Below, in pieces: positions 1 to 55,925 of a stretch of DNA of 64,000 nt. The stretch lies in NCBI GenBank assembly GCA_038207395.1, contig JBBQZW010000001.1, forward strand, positions 13,530-77,529, written 5' to 3'. The DNA is from Minisyncoccia bacterium. Lineage in GTDB: Bacteria > Patescibacteriota > Minisyncoccia > Phycocordibacterales > Phycocordibacteraceae. Within the stretch, counting starts at the first letter, position 1, and each line of letters opens with the position of its first letter. A model generated the notes under the pieces. The model was not told the DNA's origin and searched no databases. It was given only the letters and a program-made list of their open reading frames with translations. The position numbers were made by a program, and so were the translations under genes.

Positions 1-137
1 ACAAGGTAATCGTACTCTTCAGTCCCCACAGCATCGTGATATTCATTTTCAAATGAACTGTACCGCTCCACTTCTCTAAGCAGCTTTATTAACATCGCTC
101 GCATGCTTCTGTTGAAGTTATTACGACTTGTAGTCAT
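1..137 (-). CDS. partial hypothetical protein (N-terminal 45 aa visible; gene continues beyond window start)
   Basis: Minus-strand ATG at 137 gives MTTSRNNFNRSMRAMLIKLLREVERYSSFENEYHDAVGTEEYDYL... with no stop before position 1. It is co-directional with and directly downstream of the Xis-like gene. Confidence 0.3.
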   Translation of the reverse strand, partial: MTTSRNNFNRSMRAMLIKLLREVERYSSFENEYHDAVGTEEYDYL

Positions 138-141
138 AAGC

Positions 142-336
142 TTAGGTCTTGGCATTGTGAAGAAACCGGTTGAACTCTGTCTTATCAATGCGGAACTCCT
201 TTCCAATCTTGTAAGCCATGAGCTTACCCGCTTTGATATAGCGGTAGATGGTCATCACGTTTAACGAGAGAACGTCAGCAAGCTCGTTAGCTGTGTAATA
301 TTCTTTCGTTTTTGCCATATTAGGTACTTTTATCAT
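142..336 (-). CDS. small helix-turn-helix DNA-binding protein, MerR/excisionase (Xis)-like
   Basis: 64 aa. ...YTANELADVLSLNVMTIYRYIKAGKLMAYKIGKEFRI... is a typical excisionase/MerR-type HTH. Its stop overlaps the Rep-like gene by 4 nt. Confidence 0.55.
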   Translation of the reverse strand: MIKVPNMAKTKEYYTANELADVLSLNVMTIYRYIKAGKLMAYKIGKEFRIDKTEFNRFLHNAKT

Positions 337-1535
337 ACTTTACTTTTGTTTACATTCAACGAATAGGGTTGATAACTCGATAAGGTCTTCTTAACTTGCC
401 CATACCACTCGCGCGGTTGCATCTTATGTAGGTCAGACGCTATCTCGCGCAGGTCTCCAGAGTGTCGATACCAGCTTCTGTCGTCAGTACGCTTATCTAG
501 TAGAGACCTTAGCTCACGGAGCCCGTTCTCATCCCGAGCTAGCAATAAGAGGCCAGTAAGGTAGATAGCCGTCTTTCCTTTTGCGCTTTTACGCGCAACG
601 AGAATGCGTCTGAGCAAGTCCTTTGGTGTATAGGCGTGTGAGAAAAGTGGAATGCTATAGCCAGCTATCATTGTTTCCCAGTAGTGGTTAACCACCTTCT
701 TGCTTTTCGCTTTTGAGAACACTTGCCGGAAAGTAGGATTTTCTTCAAAGCCAAGCTGTTTGAAGAGAGTGTTCAACCTTCTTTTTTGGCTTAATCGAAC
801 TTCTAGCCGTAGGATTTCCTGTTCTTTCTTCAGCTCCTTAAACAAGCTCATTTGGTGCTGGGTCTGGTCTTTATCTATGGCTCGTTTCTTTCCTTTTGCG
901 AGGTCAGCTACCTTGTCATAGATAACGAATGAATGGGCTACGGAGTAGAGATATAAACTCTGTCCGTCATTCATGAAGCGAGCACGAGCAAGGTCGAAAC
1001 GCTTATTGAGATTGACCTTGCCCAGCTCGGTTATTACGTACTGTGCTGAATAACCGTCGGCTAACTCGATATTCTTTGAATAGTGAACCGCACTGACAGG
1101 AGCGTTCCTTAGCACGTCGAGCGGTATTACAACTCCCATCATACGCAGTCGCTCATCCAGTACTTCTACAACACGGTCAAAGTTGCTATCGCGCAGCTCC
1201 TCGAGATTATTCTTATAGAGAAGCTTAGGAACAGAGAACTCGATTTTGATGCTTGATTGCCAGGCAAGCTTTCCTTCTGCTCGACGAATGCCAGTAAGAC
1301 GTGGAAAGTACATGCCCTTGTCGAGGTCTTTGCTCGACGGGTTCTTTACGTACTTATCATAGGTTTTGGTACGCGCCTGCAGGTTCCACCGGTCAACTCC
1401 ATAGCCCGTCATATCAAGCATCATGGCCTTATCTCGTGGAAGAGTAAGTATCACGGTATCAATCATGACTTTCTTTTGATGCATCCTCATACCGCTCCGG
1501 CTCAAGTCGCAAGTCGATTTTATAGAGCAGGTCAA
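333..1535 (-). CDS. putative replication initiation protein (Rep_trans/RstA-like rolling-circle initiator) of a mobile element
   Basis: 400 aa. N-terminal MIDTVILTLP resembles the conserved start of Rep_trans initiators (IDWLSFT.P). Basic C-terminus. Paired with the Xis-like HTH gene. Family assignment from memory only. Confidence 0.4.
   Translation of the reverse strand: MTCSIKSTCDLSRSGMRMHQKKVMIDTVILTLPRDKAMMLDMTGYGVDRWNLQARTKTYDKYVKNPSSKDLDKGMYFPRLTGIRRAEGKLAWQSSIKIEFSVPKLLYKNNLEELRDSNFDRVVEVLDERLRMMGVVIPLDVLRNAPVSAVHYSKNIELADGYSAQYVITELGKVNLNKRFDLARARFMNDGQSLYLYSVAHSFVIYDKVADLAKGKKRAIDKDQTQHQMSLFKELKKEQEILRLEVRLSQKRRLNTLFKQLGFEENPTFRQVFSKAKSKKVVNHYWETMIAGYSIPLFSHAYTPKDLLRRILVARKSAKGKTAIYLTGLLLLARDENGLRELRSLLDKRTDDRSWYRHSGDLREIASDLHKMQPREWYGQVKKTLSSYQPYSLNVNKSKV
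337..357 (-). promoter_or_regulatory. conserved leader motif copy 1 (minus strand ATGTAAACAAAAGTAAAGT immediately 5' of ATG)
   Basis: 18/19 nt identical to the motif at 2429..2450. Both sit directly upstream of minus-strand start codons. Confidence 0.5.
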
Positions 1536-1596
1536 AGAACCCTACGAAGTTAGTTCGTGCTTCGAAGTCGTCAAATATCTGTTCTACTAATGTAGT

Positions 1597-1630
1597 TTGC
1601 TCTTCCACGAGCAAACATTAGCCAGAAAGG
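1597..1630. promoter_or_regulatory. imperfect inverted repeat upstream of the Rep-like gene (possible operator or origin element)
   Basis: ctaatgtagtttgctc / gagcaaacattag arms separated by ttccac, about 60 nt upstream of the Rep-like start. Confidence 0.3.
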
Positions 1631-1675
1631 ATGGACAGGGATAAGAAACTTCTGCAGACAGATGAAAAGAACTGC

Positions 1676-2428
1676 CTACACTTCTTTTCGCTTCTGCTTT
1701 TCCAGAGAGATGATTTTGGAAATATGCCCGTAATCAATAACGGCTTCAGAGCCAAACTTATCAGCAATGGCTTCCATTATTTTCCTGCGCGGCAGGTTCC
1801 GGTTCTCATATATAAAGTCATTACGCTCCTGAACCTTAGGGTTTTTCTTTTTAACCTTTCCAATCTTCTGTCCCGTAGCATCCTTTAAATAGTGCTCTTG
1901 CATCTGCTTGATAAATACATCGTGCTTCTCTATGAAGTCGATTATGTCCCTCTGGGTTGCCTGAGGGCTTATGCGAATGGCTAACGGATAGAAGCGGTTA
2001 TCTGCTTCTTGTATTTCTTTACTAAACGGGTCTTCACCTTCGCTCTGCAGGTCTACTAGCAGACATAAGTCAGCTCCATGCATTGCTTCAAGGGGCTCAT
2101 TGTAGAACAGCACAGATTGGATGGGGTCAGACCAATAAACGAAATGTAGGCCATAGTCGGCACACATTTTTTCAACATCTTTCCATAACTCTCTATTTGT
2201 ATCGCTGTGGCTATGTACCCACTCCCTAGGCGGCACCGTCCTATTATCCACTTGAGGAAAGCCGTTTACAGGTATCTCATACTTCTTTCTAAGTTCTAGT
2301 ACCCTTTCTTGAAAACGCGTCGTTCTAACTACTTCTTTAGCGTAGTTTTCAATCTTTACCCGTCCTTGGCTGTTCCAAGATTTCTCGAAAGCAAGTTGAG
2401 CGCTCGTTGGGATTTCATCCTCGTACAT
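1676..2428 (-). CDS. hypothetical protein (mobile-element associated)
   Basis: 250-aa ORF with no recognisable domain. Carries the same conserved leader motif as the Xis-like gene. Confidence 0.45.
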   Translation of the reverse strand: MYEDEIPTSAQLAFEKSWNSQGRVKIENYAKEVVRTTRFQERVLELRKKYEIPVNGFPQVDNRTVPPREWVHSHSDTNRELWKDVEKMCADYGLHFVYWSDPIQSVLFYNEPLEAMHGADLCLLVDLQSEGEDPFSKEIQEADNRFYPLAIRISPQATQRDIIDFIEKHDVFIKQMQEHYLKDATGQKIGKVKKKNPKVQERNDFIYENRNLPRRKIMEAIADKFGSEAVIDYGHISKIISLEKQKRKEV

Positions 2429-2450
2429 TACTTTACTTTAGTTTACATAT
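2429..2450 (-). promoter_or_regulatory. conserved leader motif copy 2 (minus strand ATGTAAACTAAAGTAAAGTA immediately 5' of ATG)
   Basis: Near-identical to 337..357. Confidence 0.5.
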
Positions 2451-2563
2451 CCCGTCAGTTCAATACGTGCTGGTATGCTTGACATTGGCTTATTCATATG
2501 TTATATGTATGTACAGGCACGAACCATAGGTTCGCTTCTTTCCAGATTTCTTAGGAGGCACAA

Positions 2564-2908
2564 ATGAGCAGTTTTCAGATTACTGGCATTCTTTTGTCAG
2601 TCCATGCTATCGAGGTCGAACATACTGACCTCGGTAAGCGTGAGACCGGAAGGCGCTGCTTTGCGGACAGCCGCTTCTTCTCGAAGCCGTTATTCGTTCC
2701 TCGCATCGGAGAACAGGTTTCTCTCAACTCAACTTCGGGAGTTATGGGTAGGGTTATCGACCTGTGGAGTACCATCACCACCCTGCCCATGCAGTCAGTC
2801 CAGCTCACTGTGGAGGTGAATGTCGGCGATGTCGATAAGCTTGTTTCCGCTAAGTGGAAGCGCACTTCCAAGAAGTTGCCGTCTAAGAAGACCCCTAGTT
2901 CCAACTAG
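2564..2908 (+). CDS. hypothetical protein
   Basis: 114 aa. Strong SD (ttaggaggcacaaATG). Chosen over the antisense ORF 2575..2904. Confidence 0.5.
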   Translation: MSSFQITGILLSVHAIEVEHTDLGKRETGRRCFADSRFFSKPLFVPRIGEQVSLNSTSGVMGRVIDLWSTITTLPMQSVQLTVEVNVGDVDKLVSAKWKRTSKKLPSKKTPSSN

Positions 2909-3014
2909 CTTCAAACCGAATTGGGAGCACGGTTAATTGCTCCCCTCTATTGAGCCCGCAAGTTCACTTGTTGTCTCATCGAGTACAGTTCTTCACACCA
3001 ACCAGGAGGGATTT

Positions 3015-3380
3015 ATGGCCTATCGCGACAACGTATCTGCTTTGGCAGCAAAGTTCGGCATCTCGAATGACACAGGTCTCCGCGAGGAAGACCTGAAAAT
3101 CGCCGAACTGCGCTTCATCGACGACCAAGGAAACGTCCTTACGACAATCCAAGCAACGCCCATGAATAAGGGAGGGCGGCTTTTCTTTCAAGCTCTCGGT
3201 ACTATCACTCTCGAGGACGAAGACCGTATGGCTTCGTTGCACGTCAACGAACGCTTGCGCTCGGAAGCAGCTCGGCACTTTGCTGAGCTATGGGAACCCA
3301 ATCCCGAACCTGGCAAGCGCGTATTGCTTGATGCCATTCGCGACCCTCGGCATGCCGAAGTTGAGATTGGCTGGAAATAG
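3015..3380 (+). CDS. hypothetical protein
   Basis: Internal ATG (MAYRDNV...) preceded by caGGAGGGatttATG. Followed by an intrinsic terminator. Confidence 0.5.
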   Translation: MAYRDNVSALAAKFGISNDTGLREEDLKIAELRFIDDQGNVLTTIQATPMNKGGRLFFQALGTITLEDEDRMASLHVNERLRSEAARHFAELWEPNPEPGKRVLLDAIRDPRHAEVEIGWK

Positions 3381-3419
3381 CCAGTTTCGGCGAACCGATA
3401 CTACATAAAAACTCGCACC

Positions 3420-3458
3420 GAACCCCAGCGAGTATAAATAAGGGGTTCTTTTCTTTTT
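3420..3458 (+). terminator. rho-independent terminator
   Basis: gaacccc ... ggggttc stem followed by ttttcttttt. Confidence 0.6.
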
Positions 3459-3530
3459 ATGCAAAAGTGAATATTCCTAATTCTCTCTCAATTTGTGCCC
3501 AGTTCAGAGTTCTAAACTTGTCCAGCATGG

Positions 3531-3583
3531 GGAGCCAAATAAAAACACCAGAGATATATGCTCTGGTGTTTTTATTTGGCTCC
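3531..3583. repeat. perfect 23-bp-arm palindrome (ggagccaaataaaaacaccagag-atatatg-ctctggtgtttttatttggctcc)
   Basis: The arms are exact reverse complements, read directly from the sequence. The loop contains a TATAT element. Confidence 0.9.
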
Positions 3584-3632
3584 GCTCACACAGACATTTT
3601 GCGCCTGTATTGGATTTGATATAGTTATAGTA

Positions 3633-3812
3633 ATGAACATATTTAACTTCGGCGAAAAGAAAGAACCTAAAAAGAACTCAGGAGAAACGTCAGACATGAC
3701 TCCGTACGGCACTTCAGGTACTCATTTGGTAGATGACTCAACGGACTCAGCAAGCTGTGACTCTTCAAGTGATGGAGGTTCTTCTGACGGAGGTTGTGGG
3801 GGCGGTGAGTAA
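3633..3812 (+). CDS. candidate small peptide with a Cys/Ser/Gly/Asp-rich C-terminus (possibly 38 aa from ATG 3696)
   Basis: MNIFNFGEKKEPKKNSGETSDMTPYGTSGTHLVDDSTDSASCDSSSDGGSSDGGCGGGE. The internal ATG at 3696 is preceded by AGGAGA. Low complexity, so it may not be expressed. Confidence 0.25.
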   Translation: MNIFNFGEKKEPKKNSGETSDMTPYGTSGTHLVDDSTDSASCDSSSDGGSSDGGCGGGE

Positions 3813-3854
3813 GGAGGTAGTAAGTACTACCGCTTACTCTGATAGTATGCAAAC

Positions 3855-4700
3855 ATGACCGTACGTCGTTTACTTCGTATTAGCCGCCCACGCTTTTGGC
3901 TGTATGAGCTTGGTACGTTTGTGGTGGGGGTAGTTGCTGCATACGCGCACGGCGCACCTGCTTCCAGCATACTTTCCATCAGTACCGCGGCATTCTTTGC
4001 GTATTTTCTCTTTCCGGCAAATCTCTACATTTACGGAATTAATGATATCTACGATTACGAAACTGATCGCTTGAATCCAAAAAAGACTGCATATGAGGCT
4101 CTTGTAATGCCCGATGAGCACGCCACGCTGTGGCGTGCCATTCTAATCACCACTATTCCGTTCGCCGCTTTCCTCATGGGCGCTCCAATTTCTGCGTGGA
4201 TTGCATTCAGTGTATTTTTGTTCTTCGCGTGTTTCTATTCTGCTCCCCCGATACGGGCAAAAATACGGCCTGGGCTTGATAGCCTTTTTAGTGCTGGACA
4301 TTATGTTGCCACGGGAGTCTTTGGATATCTTCTTGTCGGAGCCACGAGTCTCAGCTATCTTCCTGTAGCCGCAGCAATGTTCTGGGCTATTGCCATGCAT
4401 GCATATTCCGCAGTTCCTGATATTCAGGCAGATAGTGAAGGAGGGCTTGCAACTATTGCCACTAGCTTAGGCAAACAAGGAACTATTCTTGTGTGTCTTG
4501 TCCTGTATACACTTGCCAGTGTCATGGCTCTTCCGTATCTTGGCGTATCCGTCCTACTCCTAGGTGCCGTGTACACCGCGCTTATGGTACTTTCGCTTTT
4601 TGCTCGTAGTGAAAAGACCTTGTTCTCCATATACAAGGTCTTTCCAACAGTAAACGCCTTAGCAGGAATGGCGATATTTTTCCTTACGCTGTATCACTAG
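3855..4700 (+). CDS. UbiA-family prenyltransferase (integral membrane), candidate lycopene elongase/carotenoid prenyltransferase
   Basis: 281 aa, multi-TM. NDIYDYETD (NDxxDxxxD) and DIQAD (DxxxD) motifs. Divergent from the crtIBE genes. Confidence 0.8.
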   Translation: MTVRRLLRISRPRFWLYELGTFVVGVVAAYAHGAPASSILSISTAAFFAYFLFPANLYIYGINDIYDYETDRLNPKKTAYEALVMPDEHATLWRAILITTIPFAAFLMGAPISAWIAFSVFLFFACFYSAPPIRAKIRPGLDSLFSAGHYVATGVFGYLLVGATSLSYLPVAAAMFWAIAMHAYSAVPDIQADSEGGLATIATSLGKQGTILVCLVLYTLASVMALPYLGVSVLLLGAVYTALMVLSLFARSEKTLFSIYKVFPTVNALAGMAIFFLTLYH

Positions 4701-6201
4701 GAATCATTTCAGTGAGTGGTTCTGGCGTTTTAATTCCCATGATGCGCTTGTACGCGAGTTCGGCCGAAATAAGACAGATCGGCATACCAATGCCGGGATT
4801 TGTACCGGCTCCTACGTAGTAGAGATTCGAGACCTTCTTACTTACGTTATTTGGGCGGAAGGTCGCCGTTTGCCCTAAGGTGTGAGCAAGCCCGAGCGCA
4901 CTTCCTCCAAGTGAGTGGTAGTCACGGGTAAAGTCGTCAGGAGTATACGTGCGAATATATTCAATACGCGAACGAAGATTTGGGATTTTCATTTCCACCT
5001 CAAGCATTTCAAGTATCTTCGTTTGGTATGCTTCAAGCATCTCTGCAGAATATTCCACACCAGCTCCTATCGGTACTAAGACAAAGAGATTTTCTTTTCC
5101 AGCAGGTGCAACGCTTTTATCGGTCTTAGAGGGACAGCACACGTAAAATGAAGGAGCATTCGGCAGAGTTGGTGACTCAAATATTTCATCAAAGTTTTTC
5201 TTCCAGTCTTTTGCGAAGAATAGGTTGTGGTGCACCAGTGAGTCTACTGACCCATCAACCCCTAAATACATAATGAATGCAGAAGGTGCGAGTGTTCGGT
5301 TCTTCCAATACGACGCCTTAAAACTTTGATCCTTCGAACTAAGAAGTGCTGTTTCAGTGTGCGCAATGTCAGCGTTCGAGATAATCAAGTCTGCGGTAAG
5401 TTTCTCCCCATTCGTGAGTATCACACCCGTTGCAACTCTTCCCTTTGTTTCTATATGGGAGACTTCAGTATCAGTGCGGATCTCTGCGCCATACTTTCTT
5501 GCAATGCCTCCAAGCACTTCTATGAGACGATATATACCTCCTTCTGGGTAGTACACACCCATATTGAAATCAATATGACTCATTATGTTGTAGAGCGCAG
5601 GAGTCTTATAGGGAGAACTTCCGAGAAACACGAGCTGATACTGCATTATCTTCTGCACCATGTCTGATTTGAAGAATTTCTTTACGTATGTGTCCATGGT
5701 TGAAAATACGGAAAGTTTACGTCCCTCCACCATGGTTCTTTTATTAAAGAAGTCCATGAATGAGTCATAGTTCTTGTACATAAATTCGTTCGTCGCAACA
5801 TCATACTGATATGCGGATTGTGCAACGTATTCCTTGAGCTTTGTTCCACTTCCCGGCTCAAGGGTTTCAAATAAAGCTGCTGCTTTTTCTATATCTGCTT
5901 CAACATCAATAGGTTCATCCTGGTCTTTGAAGTAGATACGGTAGGAAGGTGAAAGCTTTTGCAAATGTAAGTGTTCTTCAATTGGTTCACCAAGTAACGT
6001 AAAAAAGTGCTGGAACACGTCTGGCATTAAGTACCACGAAGGCCCCATATCAAAGCGGTATCCTTCTGCTTCAAACACGTTTGCACGGCCTCCAATGTTC
6101 TTGTTCTTTTCTAGTACCGTTACGTGATAACCTTGTTTTGCCAGCAAACAGGCGGTACCAAGTCCCCCAATACCTGAACCGATGATAAGTGCTTTTTTCA
6201 T
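4684..6201 (-). CDS. crtI: phytoene desaturase family (CrtI-like) FAD-dependent oxidoreductase
   Basis: 505 aa. N-terminal GSGIGGLGTACLLAKQG dinucleotide-binding motif. CrtI/CrtN family similarity along its length. 3' end overlaps the ubiA-like gene by 17 nt (convergent). Confidence 0.85.
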   Translation of the reverse strand: MKKALIIGSGIGGLGTACLLAKQGYHVTVLEKNKNIGGRANVFEAEGYRFDMGPSWYLMPDVFQHFFTLLGEPIEEHLHLQKLSPSYRIYFKDQDEPIDVEADIEKAAALFETLEPGSGTKLKEYVAQSAYQYDVATNEFMYKNYDSFMDFFNKRTMVEGRKLSVFSTMDTYVKKFFKSDMVQKIMQYQLVFLGSSPYKTPALYNIMSHIDFNMGVYYPEGGIYRLIEVLGGIARKYGAEIRTDTEVSHIETKGRVATGVILTNGEKLTADLIISNADIAHTETALLSSKDQSFKASYWKNRTLAPSAFIMYLGVDGSVDSLVHHNLFFAKDWKKNFDEIFESPTLPNAPSFYVCCPSKTDKSVAPAGKENLFVLVPIGAGVEYSAEMLEAYQTKILEMLEVEMKIPNLRSRIEYIRTYTPDDFTRDYHSLGGSALGLAHTLGQTATFRPNNVSKKVSNLYYVGAGTNPGIGMPICLISAELAYKRIMGIKTPEPLTEMIPSDTA

Positions 6202-7061
6202 GACGAGAATATAATAGGAATAGCGTAACGAAGTTTTTGTAAAGTGGTTGTGCTGCGGCGCGCGCTAAATACATCGTAATCTGCTTCACTGATGCGGTCG
6301 AGTATTTTGCTATATAGCACTCGCGAAAGGAGAACTGCTTTTCGCCCTGGAACAGAAAGCATGGGAATACCCTTATCGGCACGCTCATAGAGCACACGTG
6401 CGCGATCAGCTTCGAATTTTAGAAGTTCCTTTAATTCAGGAGTTAGTACCGCACCTTTAACCATATCCTCAGTAACACCAAAGCGATCCATATCTTCTTT
6501 AGGGAGATAGATTCTCTCACGCTGTTCATAGTCTTCTCGAATATCACGAAGGAAGTTAGTAAGTTGCATTGCGTATCCTAAATCCGCAGCGTAGGCATAC
6601 GCATCATGGTCACTAGTTCCGATAATGTGTACAAGCATAATACCTATTACTGCAGCAGAGCCGTGCATATACTCTTTTAAGTCTTCGTACGTCTCGTAGC
6701 GCGTTACATAGGTATCGCGCAACATAGCTTCGAGGAAGGTATCCATCAAAATGGATGGGACTGAATAGGTGACAAAAGCCCATGCAGCAGCTGCCAAAAT
6801 TGGATCTTCGTGGGTTCCGGTTTGAAGCGCCTCATGCCATTCGTGTTGGAGCCTTTCGAGCCGTTCTTTTGCTTCTTCGGGGGTTTTTGATTCAGTATCA
6901 ACTATTTCATCGGCCATACGCACGAATCCATAGAGAGAATAGACGGCATCTTGAATATCTTTTGGAAACAGTTTGGTAGCGTAATAGTAGTTTGTTCCGT
7001 AGTCTTTTGTAAGTTTTTTCGCCTGGCGTATTGCCTCTACAGGCTTCGAAAATGAGCGCAT
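6198..7061 (-). CDS. crtB: phytoene synthase (squalene/phytoene synthase family)
   Basis: 287 aa. Two DxxxD motifs (ADEIVD, DIRED). YAT..LFP N-terminal signature. 4-nt overlap with crtI. Confidence 0.85.
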   Translation of the reverse strand: MRSFSKPVEAIRQAKKLTKDYGTNYYYATKLFPKDIQDAVYSLYGFVRMADEIVDTESKTPEEAKERLERLQHEWHEALQTGTHEDPILAAAAWAFVTYSVPSILMDTFLEAMLRDTYVTRYETYEDLKEYMHGSAAVIGIMLVHIIGTSDHDAYAYAADLGYAMQLTNFLRDIREDYEQRERIYLPKEDMDRFGVTEDMVKGAVLTPELKELLKFEADRARVLYERADKGIPMLSVPGRKAVLLSRVLYSKILDRISEADYDVFSARRSTTTLQKLRYAIPIIFSS

Positions 7062-7062
7062 A

Positions 7063-8115
7063 CTATGTTGTTCGTCCAGCCATACGACTAAGAAGCTCGC
7101 TCCACGCTCTCGTTAGTGATGGTGAAAAATGTTGACTCTCGAGTGCGGAGGCAGCTTCTTGGAGTTCCTTAGCTATGCGTGATCGTCCATAGCTGATTGC
7201 CCCTGTGCGTTCAAAGATTTCTTTTACTAGTCCTGTGTTTTGTTCGCCGCATTCTTTTCCAAAGCAACGAAGGAGTGCTTGAATATCCTCTGCGCTTCCG
7301 TGTGTCATAACGTAATTCGTAAAAATAGTGTGCTGCCCTTCGGAAACATCCTTCAGAGATTTCTTACCCGTTACGCTTTCGCTCCCTACAATATCTAAAA
7401 GATCGTCCTGTAGCTGAAATGCCATACCCAGAGCGGACCCAAAGACCGTACTCCACTCGTCATGCTGGCCTGACATTCCTGCAAGGGCCGCACCAAAACG
7501 AAGAGGATAAATAAAAGTGTATTGCGCAGTTTTAAGGAGTGTTTTTTTCTCAATTTCCTCGAGCGTTGTTTTTTCTTGGCCTGCAATTTTAACATCTAGC
7601 ATTTGACCAATAACGACGGCATATACCATTGCGTCAAACACACTCATGCACTTCTTTGCTACTGAGGTAGAGAGAGTTTCTGTAAGAATTTCTTTTGACC
7701 AATTAAAAACAAGATCTCCAACAAGTATTGCTTGGCTTTGTGCAGAAGCAGTATTGTTTGTCCCTTCGAGTGAGCGAGCGTATTCGTGAAGTGTGGGAAT
7801 ACCATGACGAACTGCTGCCTTGTCGATAATATCGTCATGGATAAGCGCAAACACATGAAAGAGTTCAATAGCAACAAGTATCTCTAAGACGCCTTCGTCT
7901 TCACCTCCTGCAGTCTTGTACATAAGGTAACTGACATAGGGACGGACGCGCTTGCCCCCGGCAAGCGCTATATCTTTAACATAGGCAAGAAGATACCCTA
8001 TATAGAGATCGTTCGAGAATTCAGGCGCTTTTTGAATACGGCTTGAAATTGCCTTTTCCATCAACGGATCAAATACCTGCTTAAAGGTAGTTAGGTCTAG
8101 AATGGCGGGAGTCAT
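7063..8115 (-). CDS. crtE: polyprenyl (geranylgeranyl) diphosphate synthase
   Basis: 350 aa. FARM motif LIHDDIIDK and SARM motif QLQDDLLD. Confidence 0.85.
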   Translation of the reverse strand: MTPAILDLTTFKQVFDPLMEKAISSRIQKAPEFSNDLYIGYLLAYVKDIALAGGKRVRPYVSYLMYKTAGGEDEGVLEILVAIELFHVFALIHDDIIDKAAVRHGIPTLHEYARSLEGTNNTASAQSQAILVGDLVFNWSKEILTETLSTSVAKKCMSVFDAMVYAVVIGQMLDVKIAGQEKTTLEEIEKKTLLKTAQYTFIYPLRFGAALAGMSGQHDEWSTVFGSALGMAFQLQDDLLDIVGSESVTGKKSLKDVSEGQHTIFTNYVMTHGSAEDIQALLRCFGKECGEQNTGLVKEIFERTGAISYGRSRIAKELQEAASALESQHFSPSLTRAWSELLSRMAGRTT

Positions 8116-8193
8116 GATGAGCAGTAAATAGTATTCTACCTTACAATCATTCTACTTTGGAATGAGGACAGTGAGTTAGGTAGTAAAGAATAA

Positions 8194-12397: not shown

Positions 12398-12503
12398 AGA
12401 AAAAGTTCATTCGAGTAATATATTAATACTATGCGGGTACACGTAAAGAATTGATGAAGGCGTGCTCAGCAGAGTAGAAATGATTTTGATATACTGATCC
12501 CAT

Positions 12504-13061
12504 ATGACACACACCAATACTTCAATTCCATTAGCAGAAGGTGCACACGTTCCAAACGTAACGTTCAAGACTCGGGTACGTGACGAATCAGTGGGCGGAG
12601 AAAACCCATACCGTTGGGAGGATGTTACCACTGATCAAGTGTTTGGTGGGAAGACCGTAGTGGTGTTCGGGCTCCCTGGCGCATTTACTCCCACATGCTC
12701 AAGTACCCATGCTCCTGGATTTGAGCAGAAGTACGAAGACTTTAAGAATGCAGGTGTTGATGAGGTGTACTGTCTTTCGGTAAACGATGCCTTTGTAATG
12801 AAGCAGTGGGCAGACAAACTTGGAATTTCTAAGGTAAAAATGCTTCCAGACGGTAACGCTGAGTTTACGCGCGGCATGGGAATGCTGGTTAAGAAAGAAA
12901 ATCTAGGCTTTGGAGATCGTTCATGGCGCTACAGTATGCTTGTAAAAGATGGTGTAATAACCAAACTTTTTATTGAGCCAGGTTTTTCTGATAACTGTGA
13001 CAGCGATCCATTCACTGTATCTGATGCTCAAACAATACTTGATGAGGTAACTGCTGCATAA
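12504..13061 (+). CDS. peroxiredoxin, Prx5-like (AhpC/TSA/redoxin family)
   Basis: [22 protein letters not shown] peroxidatic Cys motif. Confidence 0.85.
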
Positions 13062-13078
13062 GTAGCGTACAGAAATAA

Positions 13079-13107
13079 GAAAAGCCCACGCAAAGCGTGG
13101 GCTTTTC
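13079..13107. terminator. bidirectional rho-independent terminator between convergent genes
   Basis: aaaagcccacgc-aaa-gcgtgggcttttc, with T-runs on both strands. Confidence 0.65.
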
Positions 13108-13395
13108 TTATACTCGAACTGAGCGCATCGGCATTTTCTTCTGCGTACGCTTGTCACATTTCATGCACTTAACATAGAGTTTTGGCTTCTCCCCCCCTTC
13201 AATTTTTTTATCCACCTTCCAGTCATGAGCGCAGATAACGCGTGCAATAACAGCACTAATATTTCCTGCACTAAAAACGTACTCTCCCATCATGTCGCGC
13301 AACACATCATGTTCATCGAACGTAAGTGGTCGCTCCAACAGCTCTTCTACATAATCATAGATTTGCTGACGGTAGTGTTTGGGACGTCGTTTCAT
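13108..13395 (-). CDS. small basic protein, unknown function (operon partner of the SET-domain gene)
   Basis: 95 aa, K/R-rich, with a C-terminal C..H...C..C cluster. 10-nt gap after the SET gene. Confidence 0.5.
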   Translation of the reverse strand: MKRRPKHYRQQIYDYVEELLERPLTFDEHDVLRDMMGEYVFSAGNISAVIARVICAHDWKVDKKIEGGEKPKLYVKCMKCDKRTQKKMPMRSVRV

Positions 13396-16601: not shown

Positions 16602-16612
16602 TCGTCTATATA

Positions 16613-16645
16613 AAAGGCGGCCGAGAATCGGCCGCCTTTTTCTTT
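16613..16645 (+). terminator. rho-independent terminator
   Basis: aaaaggcggccgagaatcggccgccttttt. Confidence 0.8.
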
Positions 16646-17436: not shown

Positions 17437-17464
17437 TATAATATGGCTTATATAAGCCATATTA
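17437..17464. repeat. perfect 28-bp AT-rich palindrome (ataatatggcttat/ataagccatattat)
   Basis: Exact reverse-complement symmetry, read directly. No T-run, so it is unlikely to be a terminator. Confidence 0.9.
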
Positions 17465-17509
17465 TCGCTATATACAAGAACACAAATACAGCACTTGTCT
17501 AGTCACCGG

Positions 17510-20445: not shown

Positions 20446-21432
20446 CTAGTAGACTGGCTTTGGCACTGAAGCTGGGATAGCTGGGTAGAGCGCAGGGTCA
20501 ATGTAGTTACTAAAGCATGTGCGTCCCATCTGATGATTCCAAATATTGTTTACCCCACGCCCAGGAGGAACGGCTGCTCCATATCCGGTACCATTCCCAT
20601 CTAGTGCAAACGTTGCACAGAGCTCAAACCCTACTTTCCCATCTGAAGACTTTGCCAGTCCTTTATATTCATACGCCGCTTCTGTTTTAGGGTCTCCAGG
20701 AACCTGGTACCCAGTGAAGCTATTGTTGAGTGCGCTTAGGGACGAAGGCAGTATCTGCTTCACCTGCCAGTACGAAAGTATCTCAGACTGTATTCTTTGC
20801 AGGTCTTCAACACGCTGAGTGTCAAAGCGTACGTCACGTGCATGAGCTGGAGTACCGATGATTAGGAAGCCCCCAATAACCGTCATGATTGCGAGTGCAC
20901 CTACGGCCGCCCCAACAATGTTTACCTTCCGACGATGCAGTGTCCAGTATCCTTTTAGATCAGCAAGGAAGTGCAGGATAACGAGCACGGCCATAAGTAG
21001 AACGATAAGCGCCTTAAGCGTAAAGCGAATGGTGATATCGCCGCCGAAGAATGCGGAAAGGAGGGTGATGAGGTCAATCACCGCCGTCGCTGACGCAAGG
21101 AAAATAGTAAACACGAGCGCCCATCTGCGCACCCAGATATTTGCCTTCCCTGGTTCGCGCACGATGTCACGACGAATGGTGAGAAGGAGGCCAAGCATTG
21201 TAGGAATCAGCACGACGATGGTGGCCATTGCAACTCGTACTCCGGTACTATACGGGTCATATGAGTATGAAAGCGGATCAGGAAACGCGAAGTTTATATA
21301 CTGAAACAAAAGGGTGAAAAACGAGATAATCCCACCGTAGAGTGCAATAACAGCACCTGCCCAAAGAAAGAAATCCTTAGGAGTTGTCTTCGACGTCCTG
21401 GCTGCGTGATGACTTTCTGTAGTGTGTTCCAT
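20446..21432 (-). CDS. integral membrane protein with extracytoplasmic C-terminal domain, unknown function
   Basis: 328 aa with multiple TM segments. Resembles conserved CPR membrane proteins of unknown function. Confidence 0.5.
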   Translation of the reverse strand: MEHTTESHHAARTSKTTPKDFFLWAGAVIALYGGIISFFTLLFQYINFAFPDPLSYSYDPYSTGVRVAMATIVVLIPTMLGLLLTIRRDIVREPGKANIWVRRWALVFTIFLASATAVIDLITLLSAFFGGDITIRFTLKALIVLLMAVLVILHFLADLKGYWTLHRRKVNIVGAAVGALAIMTVIGGFLIIGTPAHARDVRFDTQRVEDLQRIQSEILSYWQVKQILPSSLSALNNSFTGYQVPGDPKTEAAYEYKGLAKSSDGKVGFELCATFALDGNGTGYGAAVPPGRGVNNIWNHQMGRTCFSNYIDPALYPAIPASVPKPVY

Positions 21433-21479
21433 ATGTGAAATTATACCACTTAAGCCTAATGGTGCAGGGTCAGCTGGTT

Positions 21480-22580: not shown

Positions 22581-23156
22581 TTATTTAGCGGTAGTCGCAA
22601 GTTTTGAAACCGTTCTCATCCATGCCGTCTTTTTTTCTTCAGGCATATGTTCAACGCGTCCAATCTCAGTAATACGGACTTTGTACCCTGAAAAGCCAAG
22701 GAGCGCTTTCCCTATTTCATTTTTAAAGTCACCAAAGAAGAACCGTTCGAGGAGTGGCCAGTTCTTTGACGTTATGATTACGCGCGCTGTCTTTCCTTTC
22801 ATTAGTTGATCCCACCCCATGCCATCTTTATGGAAGTGAAAGGCAAAGCCAGGAATAAACATACGATCCCACATTCCCTTAAGAAGCGCTGGCATACCGG
22901 CCCACCAAAGCGGATAGATAAGTACAAAGTGATCTGCCCACTTCATGTCTTCTTGCACCTTGAGAAGATCTGGTTCAAGTTCTTGTATTACTTTGTAACC
23001 CTTATGAAGGATAGGATCAAAATTTAAGTCTCCAAGATTAGTCTTGCGAACTTCGTATCCTGCTGTCATTGCTTCGTTCTGGTAGTGCGTTGCAATCTCG
23101 TTTCCGAGTGTGTCTTCAGAATCAGGATTCCCCATTAAGATAAATATTTTTTTCAT
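22581..23156 (-). CDS. flavodoxin-like NAD(P)H-dependent quinone oxidoreductase (MdaB/KefF-like)
   Basis: 191 aa. ILMGNP...DLNFDPIL...ADHFVLIYPLWW, typical of the Flavodoxin_2 family. Confidence 0.75.
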   Translation of the reverse strand: MKKIFILMGNPDSEDTLGNEIATHYQNEAMTAGYEVRKTNLGDLNFDPILHKGYKVIQELEPDLLKVQEDMKWADHFVLIYPLWWAGMPALLKGMWDRMFIPGFAFHFHKDGMGWDQLMKGKTARVIITSKNWPLLERFFFGDFKNEIGKALLGFSGYKVRITEIGRVEHMPEEKKTAWMRTVSKLATTAK

Positions 23157-23157
23157 G

Positions 23158-23412
23158 CTATTTCTGCATCAATCCTGAAAGCTCGGTGCGGTACTTCTTC
23201 ATAACATCCATAGTGGCTTTCATTTGGTTTTCGCCCCCTTTAGTGCGCTTTTCTACTTCTTCACCAATCTTTTTGAAGAGCTCAGGATCTTTTTGCACAA
23301 GCGCCATTATTTGCTCACGCTGCGCCTCTGGAACATCCTTCATCTTCCACTTCATTGCCTGTCCTAACAGAAAATTTTGTATACCCATATATCTACATAC
23401 TATCAAATACAT
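23158..23412 (-). CDS. hypothetical small protein
   Basis: 84-aa ORF, 1-nt gap to the downstream gene. Confidence 0.4.
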   Translation of the reverse strand: MYLIVCRYMGIQNFLLGQAMKWKMKDVPEAQREQIMALVQKDPELFKKIGEEVEKRTKGGENQMKATMDVMKKYRTELSGLMQK

Positions 23413-23460
23413 CGCTATTCGAGAACAGGTATGAAAGTGCCCCGATGCTTTGCATCGGGG

Positions 23461-24030
23461 CTATTCTCCAAGAGCTTTGAAGCCCTTTACTTTATCTAGA
23501 TAAAAGTATCCATTTGCTGCATCCTGGAGGTCTTGCGACATTCCTGAAAGCCAGCTGTAGACAATAAATTCGAGTTCGAGGTTAGACCCGTAGATCCCCC
23601 GTAGCTTTCGAATAGTTCGCAGATAGTCACTGTCTCCAGAGACAATCACAAAACGAACGCGCAGAGGATATTCTAACTTCCCTCCCTGAATTGAGTCTTG
23701 CTCATGCTGAGCAACGACGCCCCACATATCTTCAATGATTAGTGAGTCGATGTCGTCATTGGTTCGCACTTGCATATCAATAGCTTTGCCAAACGTACGG
23801 AATTGAACCTTATTGGAGGCAAGCAAGTCTTGACCCTCGTTCCAGTCCCTGACGTAGGCCGTAGCTCGGACGAGCGTTGTGCCGACAAGTATTTCGCTAG
23901 ACGCTATCGCTTGCGAGAGACGCTTCCAGTTAATGTCTTGCCATGCGTTTGAACGAACACCTTGAGCAATGTTAGGTACATCGATAAAGACAGCTGACGC
24001 TGGCTTTATATCGAATTCGATATCAGCCAT
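23461..24030 (-). CDS. NYN-domain (LabA-like, PIN-fold) protein
   Basis: AVFIDVPNIAQG... and SGDSDY, characteristic of NYN domains. Confidence 0.7.
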   Translation of the reverse strand: MADIEFDIKPASAVFIDVPNIAQGVRSNAWQDINWKRLSQAIASSEILVGTTLVRATAYVRDWNEGQDLLASNKVQFRTFGKAIDMQVRTNDDIDSLIIEDMWGVVAQHEQDSIQGGKLEYPLRVRFVIVSGDSDYLRTIRKLRGIYGSNLELEFIVYSWLSGMSQDLQDAANGYFYLDKVKGFKALGE

Positions 24031-31167: not shown

Positions 31168-32676
31168 ATGGAACGAACACGCCTTGTCATATATTGGTCC
31201 CGAAGAGACTTTCGATTCGCTGATAACCGCGCGTTAGTGGCAGCTCTAGCTGAATCAAAGGAAGAAGACGCCGTACTCTTGCCATTGTTTATTCTAGAGA
31301 ACTATATGGCCGCAGGAAATCCTGCAGCTCAGTTCGGACTTCCGTCTCGTCTTTTTCTTTCCCGTGCACTTCCCCACTTTGCTGCACAATTTCCTTCATT
31401 TATTATCGCACGAGGAACTGCCGTAAAGACAATCCTAGCCTTGGCACATGAATTTGCTATTACCATTCATACAAATGAAGATATTCATCCTGACTTTACG
31501 AAACAAATTACAAAAATACGTAATGCTGGGATTTCAATAAAAGTATATGCAGACCGGCTTACTGCGCCAAAAGATACGCGAACCGGAGCTGGCTCAGTGT
31601 ATTCAGTTTTCACTCCGTTTAAGAACGCCGTGCGTGAGCGGTTTGTACAAACTCCCGTAACTGAGACAGTTACGGCCAAAACCATTTCACCAGTGCCGAG
31701 CCACATACTAGAACGTATACCTTCACTCATACCGGTACTAGCGAATGATGAGTCTGCACTACTAAGCGAGTTTTCAACAGATCGAACATTCTTAATACGA
31801 AATGAGGTAATTGATCTAGAGAAATTACTTCCTCGTACCGATCCACGCGCCATTCTTAAAGACTGGTATATCACTGAAGAAGAAGCGATGGAGCATTTTA
31901 CCCAGTACCTGACCTCAGGATCTATGGATGCTTACGGTGAAAAACGTGATTCCCTTGCCTTTGACGCTGAGGGCACGGGTACCTCACGCATGAGCCTGGC
32001 ACTCGCATGGGGACTCGTGTCTGCGCGAATGCTTGTTTCGAGTATTCAAACACACTACGGAGATACGTTCGTGCACCCGCAAGCGGGTGCACGATATGAA
32101 GGCGCAGAAAAGTATATCTCCGAACTTATTTGGCGCGAGTTTTATGCGTACCTGCTCCACCACCGTCCCTCACTCTTAGATACTGAATTTCAAGAAAAAT
32201 TCCAAGGGACCATAGCGTGGGCAGACCAGAGCGACGCACTCACCCGCTTTACTGCATGGATTCAAGGATGTACTGGATACCCTATTGTGGACGCGGCAAT
32301 GAATCAGCTCGCACAAACTGGATGGATGCACAACCGCACTCGCATGGTGGTAGCTTCTGTTCTTACGAAAAATCTTGGAGTGGATTGGCGATGGGGACAA
32401 GAATATTTCCGTGCAGCACTTCTAGATCTTGATGAATCCTCAAATAACGGAGGATGGCAGTGGGGTGCATCGGTGGGTGCAGACCCTAAACCAATTCGTA
32501 TCTTTAACCCTGAACTGCAGGCTAAGAACTATGACGCGGAAGGAGCGTATCAAAAAAAGTGGCTTCCTTCTGAGTATCAAACACATCCTCCTGAACAGAT
32601 TATTCCCCACAAAGATGCTCGGGCGCAGGCACTCGCTCGGTATGGACTTTCAGGTGTAGAACCCCGCGACTACTAG
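31168..32676 (+). CDS. phr: deoxyribodipyrimidine photolyase / cryptochrome family flavoprotein
   Basis: N-terminal photolyase domain and C-terminal FAD-binding domain (GWMHNRTRMVVASVL, WQWGAS...DPKP..FNP). Confidence 0.9.
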   Translation: MERTRLVIYWSRRDFRFADNRALVAALAESKEEDAVLLPLFILENYMAAGNPAAQFGLPSRLFLSRALPHFAAQFPSFIIARGTAVKTILALAHEFAITIHTNEDIHPDFTKQITKIRNAGISIKVYADRLTAPKDTRTGAGSVYSVFTPFKNAVRERFVQTPVTETVTAKTISPVPSHILERIPSLIPVLANDESALLSEFSTDRTFLIRNEVIDLEKLLPRTDPRAILKDWYITEEEAMEHFTQYLTSGSMDAYGEKRDSLAFDAEGTGTSRMSLALAWGLVSARMLVSSIQTHYGDTFVHPQAGARYEGAEKYISELIWREFYAYLLHHRPSLLDTEFQEKFQGTIAWADQSDALTRFTAWIQGCTGYPIVDAAMNQLAQTGWMHNRTRMVVASVLTKNLGVDWRWGQEYFRAALLDLDESSNNGGWQWGASVGADPKPIRIFNPELQAKNYDAEGAYQKKWLPSEYQTHPPEQIIPHKDARAQALARYGLSGVEPRDY

Positions 32677-36644: not shown

Positions 36645-36662
36645 ATGATTCGAGTATACCAG

Positions 36663-55868: not shown

Positions 55869-55925
55869 TCTTTCTATTGTACCAGTGCACGTGTTTGAAG
55901 CTATGATTCCCGCACCCCGAGCTTT

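What the first reader, a model, noticed from the sequence alone, without database searches (positions are those of the whole stretch)
3381..3854. Unusually long intergenic region with a perfect 23-bp-arm palindrome
This is a 474-nt non-coding gap in an otherwise tightly packed genome. It holds an intrinsic terminator (3420..3458), then a 53-nt perfect hairpin or inverted repeat (3531..3583). The 7-nt loop atatatg looks like a -10 element. A low-complexity small ORF follows.

Possible roles for the palindrome:
- an operator for a dimeric regulator controlling the downstream ubiA/carotenoid genes (a light-responsive regulator such as a LitR-type site would fit the carotenoid and photolyase context);
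- an attachment or boundary site of the upstream mobile element;
- a structured RNA.
Basis: seen in the sequence. Interest (0 to 1): 0.55.

Follow-up and report, generated by a model that had tools for sequence, protein, structure and literature searches.

The report
Long-stem transcription terminator hairpin, clade-typical
The perfect 53-base palindrome is real, but it has the build of the long hairpin transcription stop signals that are common in this group of tiny-genome bacteria (Patescibacteria), so it is most likely an ordinary terminator that shields a small gene and the carotenoid genes from a neighbouring mobile element.

Summary
Arms 3531-3553 and 3561-3583 pair perfectly (23 bp, 7-nt loop, -38 kcal/mol). 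It is the strongest hairpin in the window and has no second copy.

- **Anatomy.** GGAGCC / AAATAAAAA / CACCAGAG / loop / CTCTGGTG / TTTTTATTT / GGCTCC. This is an 8-bp GC-rich stem followed at once by a 9-nt T-tract, mirrored by an A-tract, plus a 6-bp outer clamp.
- **Analogues.** 844 kb of related Patescibacteria DNA holds 62 perfect hairpins with arms of 14 bp or more, and 5 with arms of 23 bp or more. Several share the stem/T-tract/clamp layout, and most lie 0-25 nt after a stop codon.
- **The gap is not empty.** It holds the terminator of a mobile-element cargo gene (3420-3458), the palindrome, a leaderless-type promoter (TGaTATAGT, 3617-3625), an orphan 59-aa ORF (3633-3812), a hairpin (3806-3838) and the ubiA promoter (3840-3848).
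- **Negative results.** No homologous copy turned up in related elements, next to homologues of the neighbouring genes, or in the collections I scanned. There was no Rfam family match.

Best reading (confidence about 0.6): a second, strong, bidirectional-form intrinsic terminator acting as an insulator at the junction between element and host. Low novelty.

The parts
142..2428 (-). Core of an integrated mobile element: HTH_17 excisionase-like gene (142-336), Rep-like gene (333-1484/1535) and a conserved 250-aa gene (1676-2428).
   Evidence: HTH_17 at 1.3e-12. Weak Rep_trans match, 18.6 bits. More than 850 homologues, those named by their sources being Patescibacteria. The same core at 72-75% DNA identity sits next to a methylase, a helicase and a large serine recombinase in L064.
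2564..3380 (+). Element cargo: p114 (2564-2908) and p121 (3015-3380). Both have GGAGG ribosome-binding sites, and GC is 51-54% against about 45% elsewhere.
   Evidence: p121 homologues (54-56% identity) occur in L074, next to tRNA-Asn, and in L075.
3420..3458 (+). T1, the weak intrinsic terminator of p121: 7-bp stem, 15-nt loop, then TTTTCTTTTT.
   Evidence: -11.4 kcal/mol. It resembles the terminator after the p121 homologue in L075, GAACCCGcttcgGTGGGTTTTCTGTTTTT.
3531..3583 (.). The palindrome (T2): outer clamp 3531-3536/3578-3583, A-tract 3537-3545, GC-rich stem 3546-3553/3561-3568, loop 3554-3560, T-tract 3569-3577.
   Evidence: The inner stem alone folds at -12.2 kcal/mol and is followed directly by UUUUUAUUU.
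3617..3625 (+). Extended -10 element TGaTATAGT, ending 7 nt before ATG 3633: a leaderless-type promoter for the small ORF.
   Evidence: In this window 24 of 58 genes carry TANNNT ending 5-9 nt before the ATG, against 6-14 at other offsets.
3633..3812 (+). Orphan small ORF (59 aa; acidic, Ser/Asp/Gly-rich, 3 Cys). The deposited annotation extends it to ATG 3558, inside the hairpin loop (84 aa).
   Evidence: Codon-usage score is +0.20, which is gene-like; the 25-codon N-terminal extension scores -0.15. PF25184 YxzE-like scores 36.1 bits for the 84-aa form and 24 bits for the 59-aa form, both below the cut-off of 40. No homologue in 5.8 billion or 1.84 billion proteins.
3806..3838 (+). Interrupted hairpin spanning the small ORF's stop codon. 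It contains the 16-bp palindrome GGTAGTAAGTACTACC (3816-3831) in the -35 region of the ubiA promoter.
   Evidence: -16.8 kcal/mol, z -3.05.
3840..3848 (+). Extended -10 element TGaTAGTAT, ending 6 nt before the ubiA ATG.
3855..4700 (+). ubiA-family prenyltransferase (lycopene-elongase-like), convergent with crtI-crtB-ggpps on the - strand (4684-8115).
   Evidence: The synteny is conserved in Patescibacteria relatives.

Best explanation
The palindrome is a Rho-independent (intrinsic) transcription terminator of the long, perfectly paired, bidirectional-form type that is common in Patescibacteria.

How it would work. As RNA polymerase transcribes either strand, the 8-bp GC-rich stem (CACCAGAG/CUCUGGUG, 7-nt loop) forms just as the polymerase sits on the UUUUUAUUU tract, and the transcript is released. 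The mirrored A-tract and the 6-bp outer clamp only lengthen the helix, to 23 bp.

Where it sits. It lies 72 nt after the weak, large-loop terminator T1 of the mobile-element cargo gene p121. It lies 33 nt before the extended -10 promoter of the small ORF. It therefore acts as a back-stop insulator: element-driven transcription cannot run into the host small-ORF and ubiA units, and any antisense transcription from the right cannot run into the element.

Shown: the anatomy, its uniqueness in the window, the clade-wide class of analogues and where those sit, and the promoter pattern. Inferred: that termination actually happens here and which transcripts it stops. The perfection and the extra clamp may come from hairpin-perfecting template-switch mutation rather than from selection.
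For: - **Canonical terminator core.** 8-bp stem (5 G:C), 7-nt loop, -12.2 kcal/mol, followed at once by TTTTTATTT, and the same on the other strand.
- **Same style elsewhere in the window.** The window's other intergenic terminators are also perfect palindromes in which A- and T-tracts pair, for example 13075-13111 and 16612-16640.
- **Common in the clade.** In 844 kb of related Patescibacteria loci there are 62 perfect hairpins with arms of 14 bp or more, 18 with 18 or more, and 5 with 23 or more. About 0.4 hairpins of this size are therefore expected per 64 kb.
- **Shared architecture.** Adding the window to that set gives 67 such hairpins. 44 of the 67 have a short stem followed by a run of four or more T inside the arm, and 10 also carry an outer clamp of 4 bp or more. 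L009:850-900 (stem 6, T-tract 11, clamp 6) and L024:7345-7391 (5, 10, 6) match the window's 8, 9, 6.
- **Position of the analogues.** Most lie 0-25 nt after a stop codon, often between same-strand genes. Some lie 185-191 nt from the previous gene, like this one. L009 and L016 have one 33 nt upstream of their own ubiA.
- **Junction position.** The palindrome sits between genes with Shine-Dalgarno sites and higher GC (the element) and genes with leaderless-type promoters (the host).
- **No sign of another role.** It is not conserved with any neighbouring gene family or element.
- **Published precedent.** Long-stem terminators with A-tracts at the ends of mobile-element operons are documented, as is A-tract/U-tract pairing that aids termination (PMC10325885).
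Against: - No transcript data exist, so termination is not shown.
- The full 23-bp helix is not followed by a U-tract; only the inner stem is.
- The 6-bp clamp and the perfect symmetry are not needed for termination.
- The palindrome lies 150 nt after the nearest stop codon, and a terminator-like hairpin (T1) already lies between.
- No - strand gene converges on it, so the bidirectional form has no obvious second client.
- Its loop (7 nt) is larger than the 3-4-nt loops of the window's other intergenic terminators.
Confidence: 0.6

Rival explanations
1. The palindrome is a functionless or only marginally functional by-product. An ordinary terminator or quasi-palindrome was made perfect and extended by intra-strand template switching during replication, and the palindrome has no role beyond what the inner stem already did.
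For: Perfect hairpins are strongly over-represented even inside coding sequences of this window, compared with synonymous-codon shuffles: arms of 10 or more, 6 against 0.57; arms of 11 or more, 4 against 0.1. The 17-bp-arm palindrome in tgt encodes a conserved peptide and is not palindromic in a relative's tgt. The outer GGAGCC/GGCTCC clamp has no role in termination.
Against: This explains how the palindrome arose, not what it does, so it is compatible with the terminator reading. Clamp-bearing analogues recur in several related genomes, which could equally mean selection.
Confidence: 0.12
2. It is a DNA site of the neighbouring mobile element: a recombination (att) site for its serine recombinase, or a hairpin origin (double- or single-strand origin, or oriT) used by the Rep-like protein.
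For: It lies within about 150 nt of the last element gene. The element encodes a Rep-like protein (weak Rep_trans match; one homologue carries Phage_CRI), and rolling-circle origins are hairpins (general knowledge). The element's right boundary must lie between 3459 and about 3850.
Against: Related elements with 78-81% identical Rep (L064, L068) have no comparable palindrome anywhere. Conserved DNA is confined to the HTH-Rep-p250 core, about 2 kb away. No half-site or arm fragment recurs in the element. Integrated serine-recombinase att sites are hybrids and not expected to be perfect palindromes (general knowledge). The layout is that of a terminator.
Confidence: 0.1
3. It is an RNA-level regulatory or processing element: a 23-bp double-stranded RNA helix that RNase III cleaves, that caps the 3' end of a small RNA starting around 3460-3525, or that occludes the ATG at 3558 of the 84-aa form of the small ORF.
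For: 23 bp of perfect helix is enough for RNase III (general knowledge). The deposited annotation starts the ORF at the ATG in the loop, and the 84-aa form scores higher against PF25184 (36 against 24 bits).
Against: No Rfam family reached threshold. No promoter-like site lies upstream of the hairpin. The 25 N-terminal codons have non-coding codon usage. ATG 3558 has neither a Shine-Dalgarno site nor the leaderless -10 spacing, whereas ATG 3633 does. The ORF has no homologues with which to test its N-terminus.
Confidence: 0.1
4. It is an operator or activator site for a dimeric or tetrameric DNA-binding regulator (for example a light-responsive LitR/CarH-type protein) that controls the small ORF, ubiA or the carotenoid genes.
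For: Perfect dyad symmetry, and a position upstream of carotenoid-pathway genes.
Against: The palindrome lies about 260 nt upstream of the ubiA promoter with another ORF between, and at -102 to -50 from the small ORF's start. The promoters here are of the extended -10 type. 53 bp of unbroken symmetry with an A9/T9 core is not operator-like. No second copy lies in front of the crt operon. A different motif, AGGTAGTAA, is the one shared by the two carotenoid promoter regions.
Confidence: 0.08

Closest known systems
Bidirectional intrinsic (Rho-independent) terminators with paired A- and U-tracts
   Same: GC-rich stem, short loop, a U-tract directly after the stem on both strands, and an A-tract that can pair with the U-tract to give a long perfect hairpin.
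   Different: It is not placed between convergent genes. It carries an extra 6-bp GC clamp outside the tracts. It lies 150 nt from the nearest stop codon, behind another terminator.
Long-stem, antitermination-resistant terminator TerR of Bacillus subtilis plasmid pLS20 (PMC10325885)
   Same: An unusually long stem with GC-rich bottom and top and an A:U-rich middle, a 7-nt loop and an upstream A-tract, sitting at the end of a mobile-element transcription unit.
   Different: TerR has a 15-bp stem followed by ten U after the whole stem. Here the U-tract is inside the stem and nothing U-rich follows the full helix. No antitermination system was identified in this element.
Extended perfect-hairpin terminators in related Patescibacteria loci (e.g. 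L009:850-900, L009:8229-8278, L016:7542-7597, L024:7345-7391)
   Same: The same order of parts (clamp, A-tract, 5-8-bp stem, loop, stem, T-tract, clamp) and the same arm lengths of 21-26 bp. Most lie just after stop codons.
   Different: No sequence homology; they are analogues by architecture only. The window's copy has a longer inner stem (8 bp) and a larger loop (7 nt).
REP/BIME-type or MITE-type dispersed palindromic repeats
   Same: An intergenic, stable, palindromic hairpin.
   Different: It is single-copy in the window. The arm is absent from the metagenome-contig and viral-contig collections, and the surrounding 121 nt have no significant match in the phage or plasmid collections. No flanking target duplication was seen by eye in the sequence.

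Membership tests
Intrinsic (Rho-independent) terminator | GC-rich stem of about 5-14 bp with a short loop | tested here: met
   Inner stem CACCAGAG/CTCTGGTG: 8 bp, 5 G:C, 7-nt loop, -12.2 kcal/mol.
Intrinsic (Rho-independent) terminator | U-rich tract immediately 3' of the stem | tested here: met
   TTTTTATTT at 3569-3577 directly follows the inner stem, and the same holds on the - strand. No U-tract follows the full 23-bp helix.
Intrinsic (Rho-independent) terminator | Lies downstream of a transcription unit on the same strand | tested here: inconclusive
   It lies 150 nt after the p121 stop codon, with T1 in between. Clade analogues lie mostly 0-25 nt after stops, but some lie 185-191 nt away.
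Intrinsic (Rho-independent) terminator | Transcripts end in the U-tract | not testable with these tools
   No transcript data are available.
Bidirectional terminator | Serves convergent genes | tested here: not met
   No credible - strand gene lies to the right; the antisense ORFs score -0.04 and -0.24 on codon usage. In related loci the symmetric form is also common between same-strand genes.
REP/MITE-like dispersed repeat | Multiple copies in the genome or in relatives | tested here: not met
   Only the two arms match in 64 kb at up to 3 mismatches. No 11-mer fragment recurs meaningfully. The arm has 0 hits in metagenome contigs and viral contigs. The 121-nt region 3500-3620 has no significant match in phages or plasmids. 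Only 64 kb of the genome could be searched.
Operator of a LitR/CarH-type light regulator | Site overlaps or abuts the promoter of the regulated carotenoid genes, and recurs at co-regulated promoters | tested here: not met
   The palindrome is about 260 nt from the ubiA -10 element and absent upstream of the crt operon.
Operator of a LitR/CarH-type light regulator | A MerR-family regulator with a B12-binding domain is encoded in the genome | not tested
   The window's proteins were not all scanned, and the rest of the genome is unavailable.
Attachment site of a serine-recombinase element | Lies exactly at the element-host junction, and related elements carry related terminal sequences | tested here: inconclusive
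   No similar sequence lies at candidate ends of L064, and no palindrome occurs in L064 or L068. The window's left end and an empty site are unavailable.
Rolling-circle origin (dso, sso or oriT) of a Rep_trans/gene-II-type protein | Hairpin conserved with, and near, the rep gene across related elements | tested here: not met
   Conservation is limited to 142-2053, and relatives have no palindrome.
Any Rfam RNA family | Covariance-model score at or above the gathering threshold | tested here: not met
   Only generic hairpin matches at 12-28 bits against thresholds of 40-144.
YxzE-like putative bacteriocin (PF25184), for the adjacent small ORF | Score at or above the Pfam gathering threshold (40 bits) | tested here: not met
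   36.1 bits for the 84-aa form and 24.0 bits for the 59-aa form. A precomputed label PF25184.2 is attached to P0121. No other homologue was found.

The most novel reading that the evidence does not exclude
The long perfect palindromes of this clade, including the outer clamps and the excess of perfect hairpins inside genes, might reflect something specific to Patescibacteria. One possibility is an unusually active hairpin-perfecting template-switch mutation process. Another is a termination or RNA-processing mode that needs helices of about 20 bp or more, for example antitermination-proof insulators at mobile-element borders or RNase III-trimmed 3' ends. On that reading this palindrome would be an extreme example of it.
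Probability: 0.15. Interest if true: 0.5.

Novelty: new member of a known kind. Interest (0 to 1): 0.15.

Why it matters
It matters little on its own. It removes a false lead (a light-responsive operator or an att site) and shows that a striking perfect palindrome in a Patescibacteria genome should first be read as a terminator.

It is useful for annotation in three ways:

- The deposited 84-aa gene model probably starts 75 nt too early, inside the hairpin loop.
- The gap is a string of small, separate transcription units.
- Host genes here use -10 boxes placed 5-9 nt before the ATG, so promoters and start codons can be predicted together.

The side observations (hairpin excess in coding DNA, and a motif shared by the two carotenoid promoter regions) are more interesting than the palindrome itself.

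Tried and rejected
- **Exact-arm searches.** Searches in metagenome contigs and viral contigs found nothing. Distant BLAST of 3500-3620 against phages and plasmids gave one insignificant hit and none.
- **Retrieving the source contig to see the element's left end.** The window's own proteins (P0001, P0121, P0122/ubiA) are in the protein collection but not in the contig index.
- **Strain-level comparison to find an empty site.** The closest ubiA relatives are only 58-68% identical, so intergenic DNA cannot be aligned.
- **Homologues of the small ORF.** None were found in 5.8 billion or 1.84 billion proteins, so its N-terminus could not be tested by conservation.
- **Terminal inverted or direct repeats of the L064 element**, and similarity of its ends to 3440-3640: nothing found.
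- **Rfam** at gathering and at permissive thresholds: nothing.
- **PHROGs and NCBIfam** for the element proteins and the small ORF: nothing.
- **Loop ATATATG as a -10 element.** Rejected: there is no -35 partner, and this genome's -10 boxes sit 5-9 nt before start codons.
- **A first version of the clade hairpin scan** was spoiled by runs of N and was redone.

Full report
**Observation.** The sequence is as described. The ORF ending at 3380 and ubiA starting at 3855 leave a 474-nt gap. Arms 3531-3553 and 3561-3583 are 23 nt and 100% complementary around the loop ATATATG. The arm has no other match in the window at up to 3 mismatches, and none is expected by chance. As RNA the hairpin folds at -38.2 kcal/mol on the + strand and -37.4 on the - strand, z = -14 and -11. 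It is the longest perfect hairpin in the 64 kb; the next has 17-bp arms. The proposed first terminator at 3420-3458 is present but weak: a 7-bp stem, a 15-nt loop, then TTTTCTTTTT, at -11.4 kcal/mol and z -1.9.

**Organism and setting.** The downstream genes are a UbiA-family prenyltransferase (NF009516, 242 bits) followed on the opposite strand by crtI-, crtB- and GGPP-synthase-like genes. The nearest relatives of ubiA are metagenome-assembled Patescibacteria (Paceibacteria, and bins labelled Saccharibacteria) at 58-68% identity. The order ubiA(+), crtI(-), crtB(-), ggpps(-) is conserved among them. What lies upstream of ubiA differs in every relative, and the gap there is usually 15-150 nt.

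**The upstream mobile element.** To the left of the gap is an integrated element.
- An HTH_17 excisionase-like gene lies at 142-336.
- A Rep-like gene lies at 333-1535, with a weak Rep_trans match. It has more than 850 homologues; those named by their sources are Patescibacteria.
- A conserved 250-aa gene follows at 1676-2428.
- In L064 the same core, at 72-75% DNA identity, continues into a methylase, a helicase and a large serine recombinase. In the window's orientation those would lie beyond position 1.
- The two + strand genes next to the gap, p114 and p121, are absent from those relatives. They have GGAGG ribosome-binding sites and 51-54% GC against about 45%, so they look like cargo.
- p121 homologues in L074 (beside tRNA-Asn) and L075 are followed by ordinary terminators. 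The L075 terminator resembles T1 in sequence. Neither locus has the palindrome.

**The gap is not empty.** This genome shows a clear promoter and start-codon pattern. In 24 of 58 genes a TANNNT hexamer ends 5-9 nt before the ATG, against 6-14 genes at any other 5-nt offset class, and it often takes the extended form TGnTAnnnT. Most of these genes lack a Shine-Dalgarno site. Of the ten TGnTAnnnT-N5-9-ATG matches in the window, six sit on the start codon of an ORF of 100 aa or more. Two more of the ten lie in the gap:
- TGaTATAGT at 3617-3625, 7 nt before ATG 3633.
- TGaTAGTAT at 3840-3848, 6 nt before the ubiA ATG.

The ORF from 3633 to 3812 (59 aa) has gene-like codon usage: +0.20, above the 95th percentile of spurious ORFs. 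The 25 codons that the deposited annotation adds, starting at the ATG inside the hairpin loop, score -0.15. The ORF is an orphan, with no homologue in 5.8 billion or 1.84 billion proteins. Its match to PF25184 (YxzE-like) stays below the curated cut-off. The 'bacteriocin' label for YxzE itself rests only on a genome-mining score (PMC1538908). A hairpin at 3806-3838 spans the ORF's stop codon.

From left to right the gap therefore reads: T1, a 72-nt spacer, the palindrome, a promoter, the small ORF, a hairpin, and the ubiA promoter.

**What the palindrome is.** Its parts are GGAGCC, AAATAAAAA, CACCAGAG, the loop, CTCTGGTG, TTTTTATTT and GGCTCC. The inner 8-bp stem (-12.2 kcal/mol) followed at once by a 9-nt T-tract is a textbook intrinsic terminator, and by symmetry the same holds on the other strand. 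The consensus scan missed it only because the scan looks for the T-run after the longest stem.

The window's other intergenic terminators are also perfect palindromes whose A- and T-tracts pair, for example ATAAGAAAAGCCCACGC/GCGTGGGCTTTTCTTAT at 13075-13111.

The decisive result came from the related loci.
- 844 kb of Patescibacteria DNA holds 62 perfect hairpins with arms of 14 bp or more, 18 with 18 or more, and 5 with 23 or more. That is roughly 0.4 of this size expected per 64 kb.
- Adding the window gives 67 such hairpins. 44 of the 67 have a short stem followed by a run of four or more T inside the arm. Ten also carry an outer clamp of 4 bp or more beyond the tract.
- L009:850-900 (GGGCAC-AAATATAAAAA-GACTCA) and L024:7345-7391 (GTGGCC-AAACAAAAAA-CAGCC) are built almost exactly like the window's element.
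- Most lie 0-25 nt after a stop codon, often between same-strand genes. A few lie 185-191 nt from the previous gene.
- L009 and L016 even have one 33 nt upstream of their own ubiA.

So the palindrome is a single-copy sequence but an ordinary member of a clade-typical structural class.

**Most likely function.** The palindrome is a second, strong terminator behind the weak T1. It sits at the junction between the foreign genes (Shine-Dalgarno sites, higher GC) and the host genes (leaderless-type promoters), 33 nt before the small ORF's extended -10 element. It would stop read-through from the element into the small ORF and ubiA, and stop any antisense transcription in the other direction.

Published work shows that pairing between an upstream A-tract and the U-tract aids termination. 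It also shows that unusually long stems, at the end of a mobile-element operon, make a terminator resistant to processive antitermination (PMC10325885). I did not find an antitermination system here, so that parallel is only an analogy. Termination itself is inferred, because there are no transcript data.

**Why so perfect and so long.** The 6-bp clamp is not needed for termination. Perfect hairpins are also over-represented inside coding sequences of this window when compared with synonymous-codon shuffles: arms of 8 or more, 19 against 6.3; 10 or more, 6 against 0.57; 11 or more, 4 against 0.1. Three of them lie in tgt. One has 17-bp arms that encode the conserved peptide TPAFVPVGTKAGV, and the same stretch is not palindromic in a relative's tgt. 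This pattern fits a mutational process, template switching, that turns quasi-palindromes into perfect ones. That reading rests on general knowledge of such mutations, not on a test here. It could account for the clamp without any function.

**Rivals.**
- *Operator.* The position and the layout argue against it, and no copy lies before the crt operon.
- *att site or rolling-circle origin.* No counterpart exists in related elements, and conservation is restricted to the core about 2 kb away. The boundary could not be mapped, because the element's left end and any empty site are out of reach.
- *Regulatory or processed RNA.* No Rfam family matched and no promoter lies upstream. The start codon in the loop lacks initiation signals.
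- *REP- or MITE-like repeat.* It is single-copy wherever I could search.

**Verdict.** The feature is real and its description was accurate, but it is ordinary: a new example of a known kind of element. Interest is low. The side observations deserve more attention than the palindrome: leaderless-type promoters, the hairpin excess in coding DNA, a motif shared by the two carotenoid promoter regions, and the probably misplaced start of the annotated small gene.

Noticed in passing
window-wide; e.g. 12487-12504, 21432-21448 (-), 36644-36661 (-), 55868-55884 (-), 3617-3633, 3840-3855: Host genes commonly have a -10 box, often extended as TGnTAnnnT, ending 5-9 nt before the ATG and no Shine-Dalgarno site. 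24 of 58 genes show this, against 6-14 at other offsets. That implies widespread leaderless mRNAs. The mobile-element genes p114, p121 and Rep instead have GGAGG-type sites.
   Followed up: partly
window 45237-45259, 45479-45501, 45697-45734 (all inside tgt, 44589-45824 -); also 4613-4643, 32069-32094, 40535-40560: Perfect hairpins are enriched inside coding sequences compared with synonymous-codon shuffles (arms of 10 or more: 6 against 0.57). The 17-bp-arm palindrome in tgt encodes the conserved peptide TPAFVPVGTKAGV and is not palindromic in the tgt of L007. This suggests hairpin-perfecting template-switch mutation, or selection for intragenic hairpins.
   Followed up: partly
window 3815-3831 and 8178-8186: AGGTAGTAA occurs exactly twice in the 64 kb. 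One copy lies inside the 16-bp palindrome GGTAGTAAGTACTACC, in the -35 region of the ubiA promoter. The other lies upstream of the ggpps-crtB-crtI operon. The flanks are also similar (GTGAGT...AGGTAGTAA). This is a better candidate for a shared carotenoid operator than the 53-nt palindrome. Several relatives also share 10-14-nt words between their two promoter regions.
   Followed up: partly
window 3558-3812: The deposited annotation (P0121, 84 aa, labelled PF25184 YxzE-like) starts the small gene at the ATG inside the hairpin loop. Codon usage and the promoter pattern favour ATG 3633 (59 aa). The protein has no homologue in either protein database.
   Followed up: yes
window 1-3460; L064, L065, L068: The integrated element has a conserved HTH_17 / Rep-like / 250-aa core, and the Rep-like family has more than 850 members. 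Relatives add an N6/N4 methylase, a helicase and a large serine recombinase, and they carry different cargo (DUF3800, SocA_Panacea). The Rep-like protein matches Rep_trans only weakly, and one homologue matches Phage_CRI.
   Followed up: partly
window 4613-4643: A perfect 11-bp-arm hairpin with a short T-run on the - strand lies inside the 3' end of ubiA, 41-71 nt past the crtI stop codon (4684). The two genes overlap tail to tail. It may be the crt operon's terminator embedded in the convergent gene.
   Followed up: no
window 23388-23405 (- strand), within the 304-nt gap 23156-23461: TGATAGTATGTAGATATATG matches the extended -10 / ATG pattern in another long gap and may mark an unannotated small gene. 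A terminator hairpin lies at 23439-23461.
   Followed up: no
L074:2438-2934: A 56%-identical homologue of p121 lies directly after a tRNA-Asn gene, which suggests p121-type genes sit at the edges of tRNA-integrating elements in other Patescibacteria.
   Followed up: no
window 17438-17465: An AT-rich 28-bp perfect palindrome with no spacer (ATAATATGGCTTAT/ATAAGCCATATTAT) lies between two - strand genes. It lacks a GC-rich stem, so it looks less like a terminator and more like a protein-binding site.
   Followed up: no
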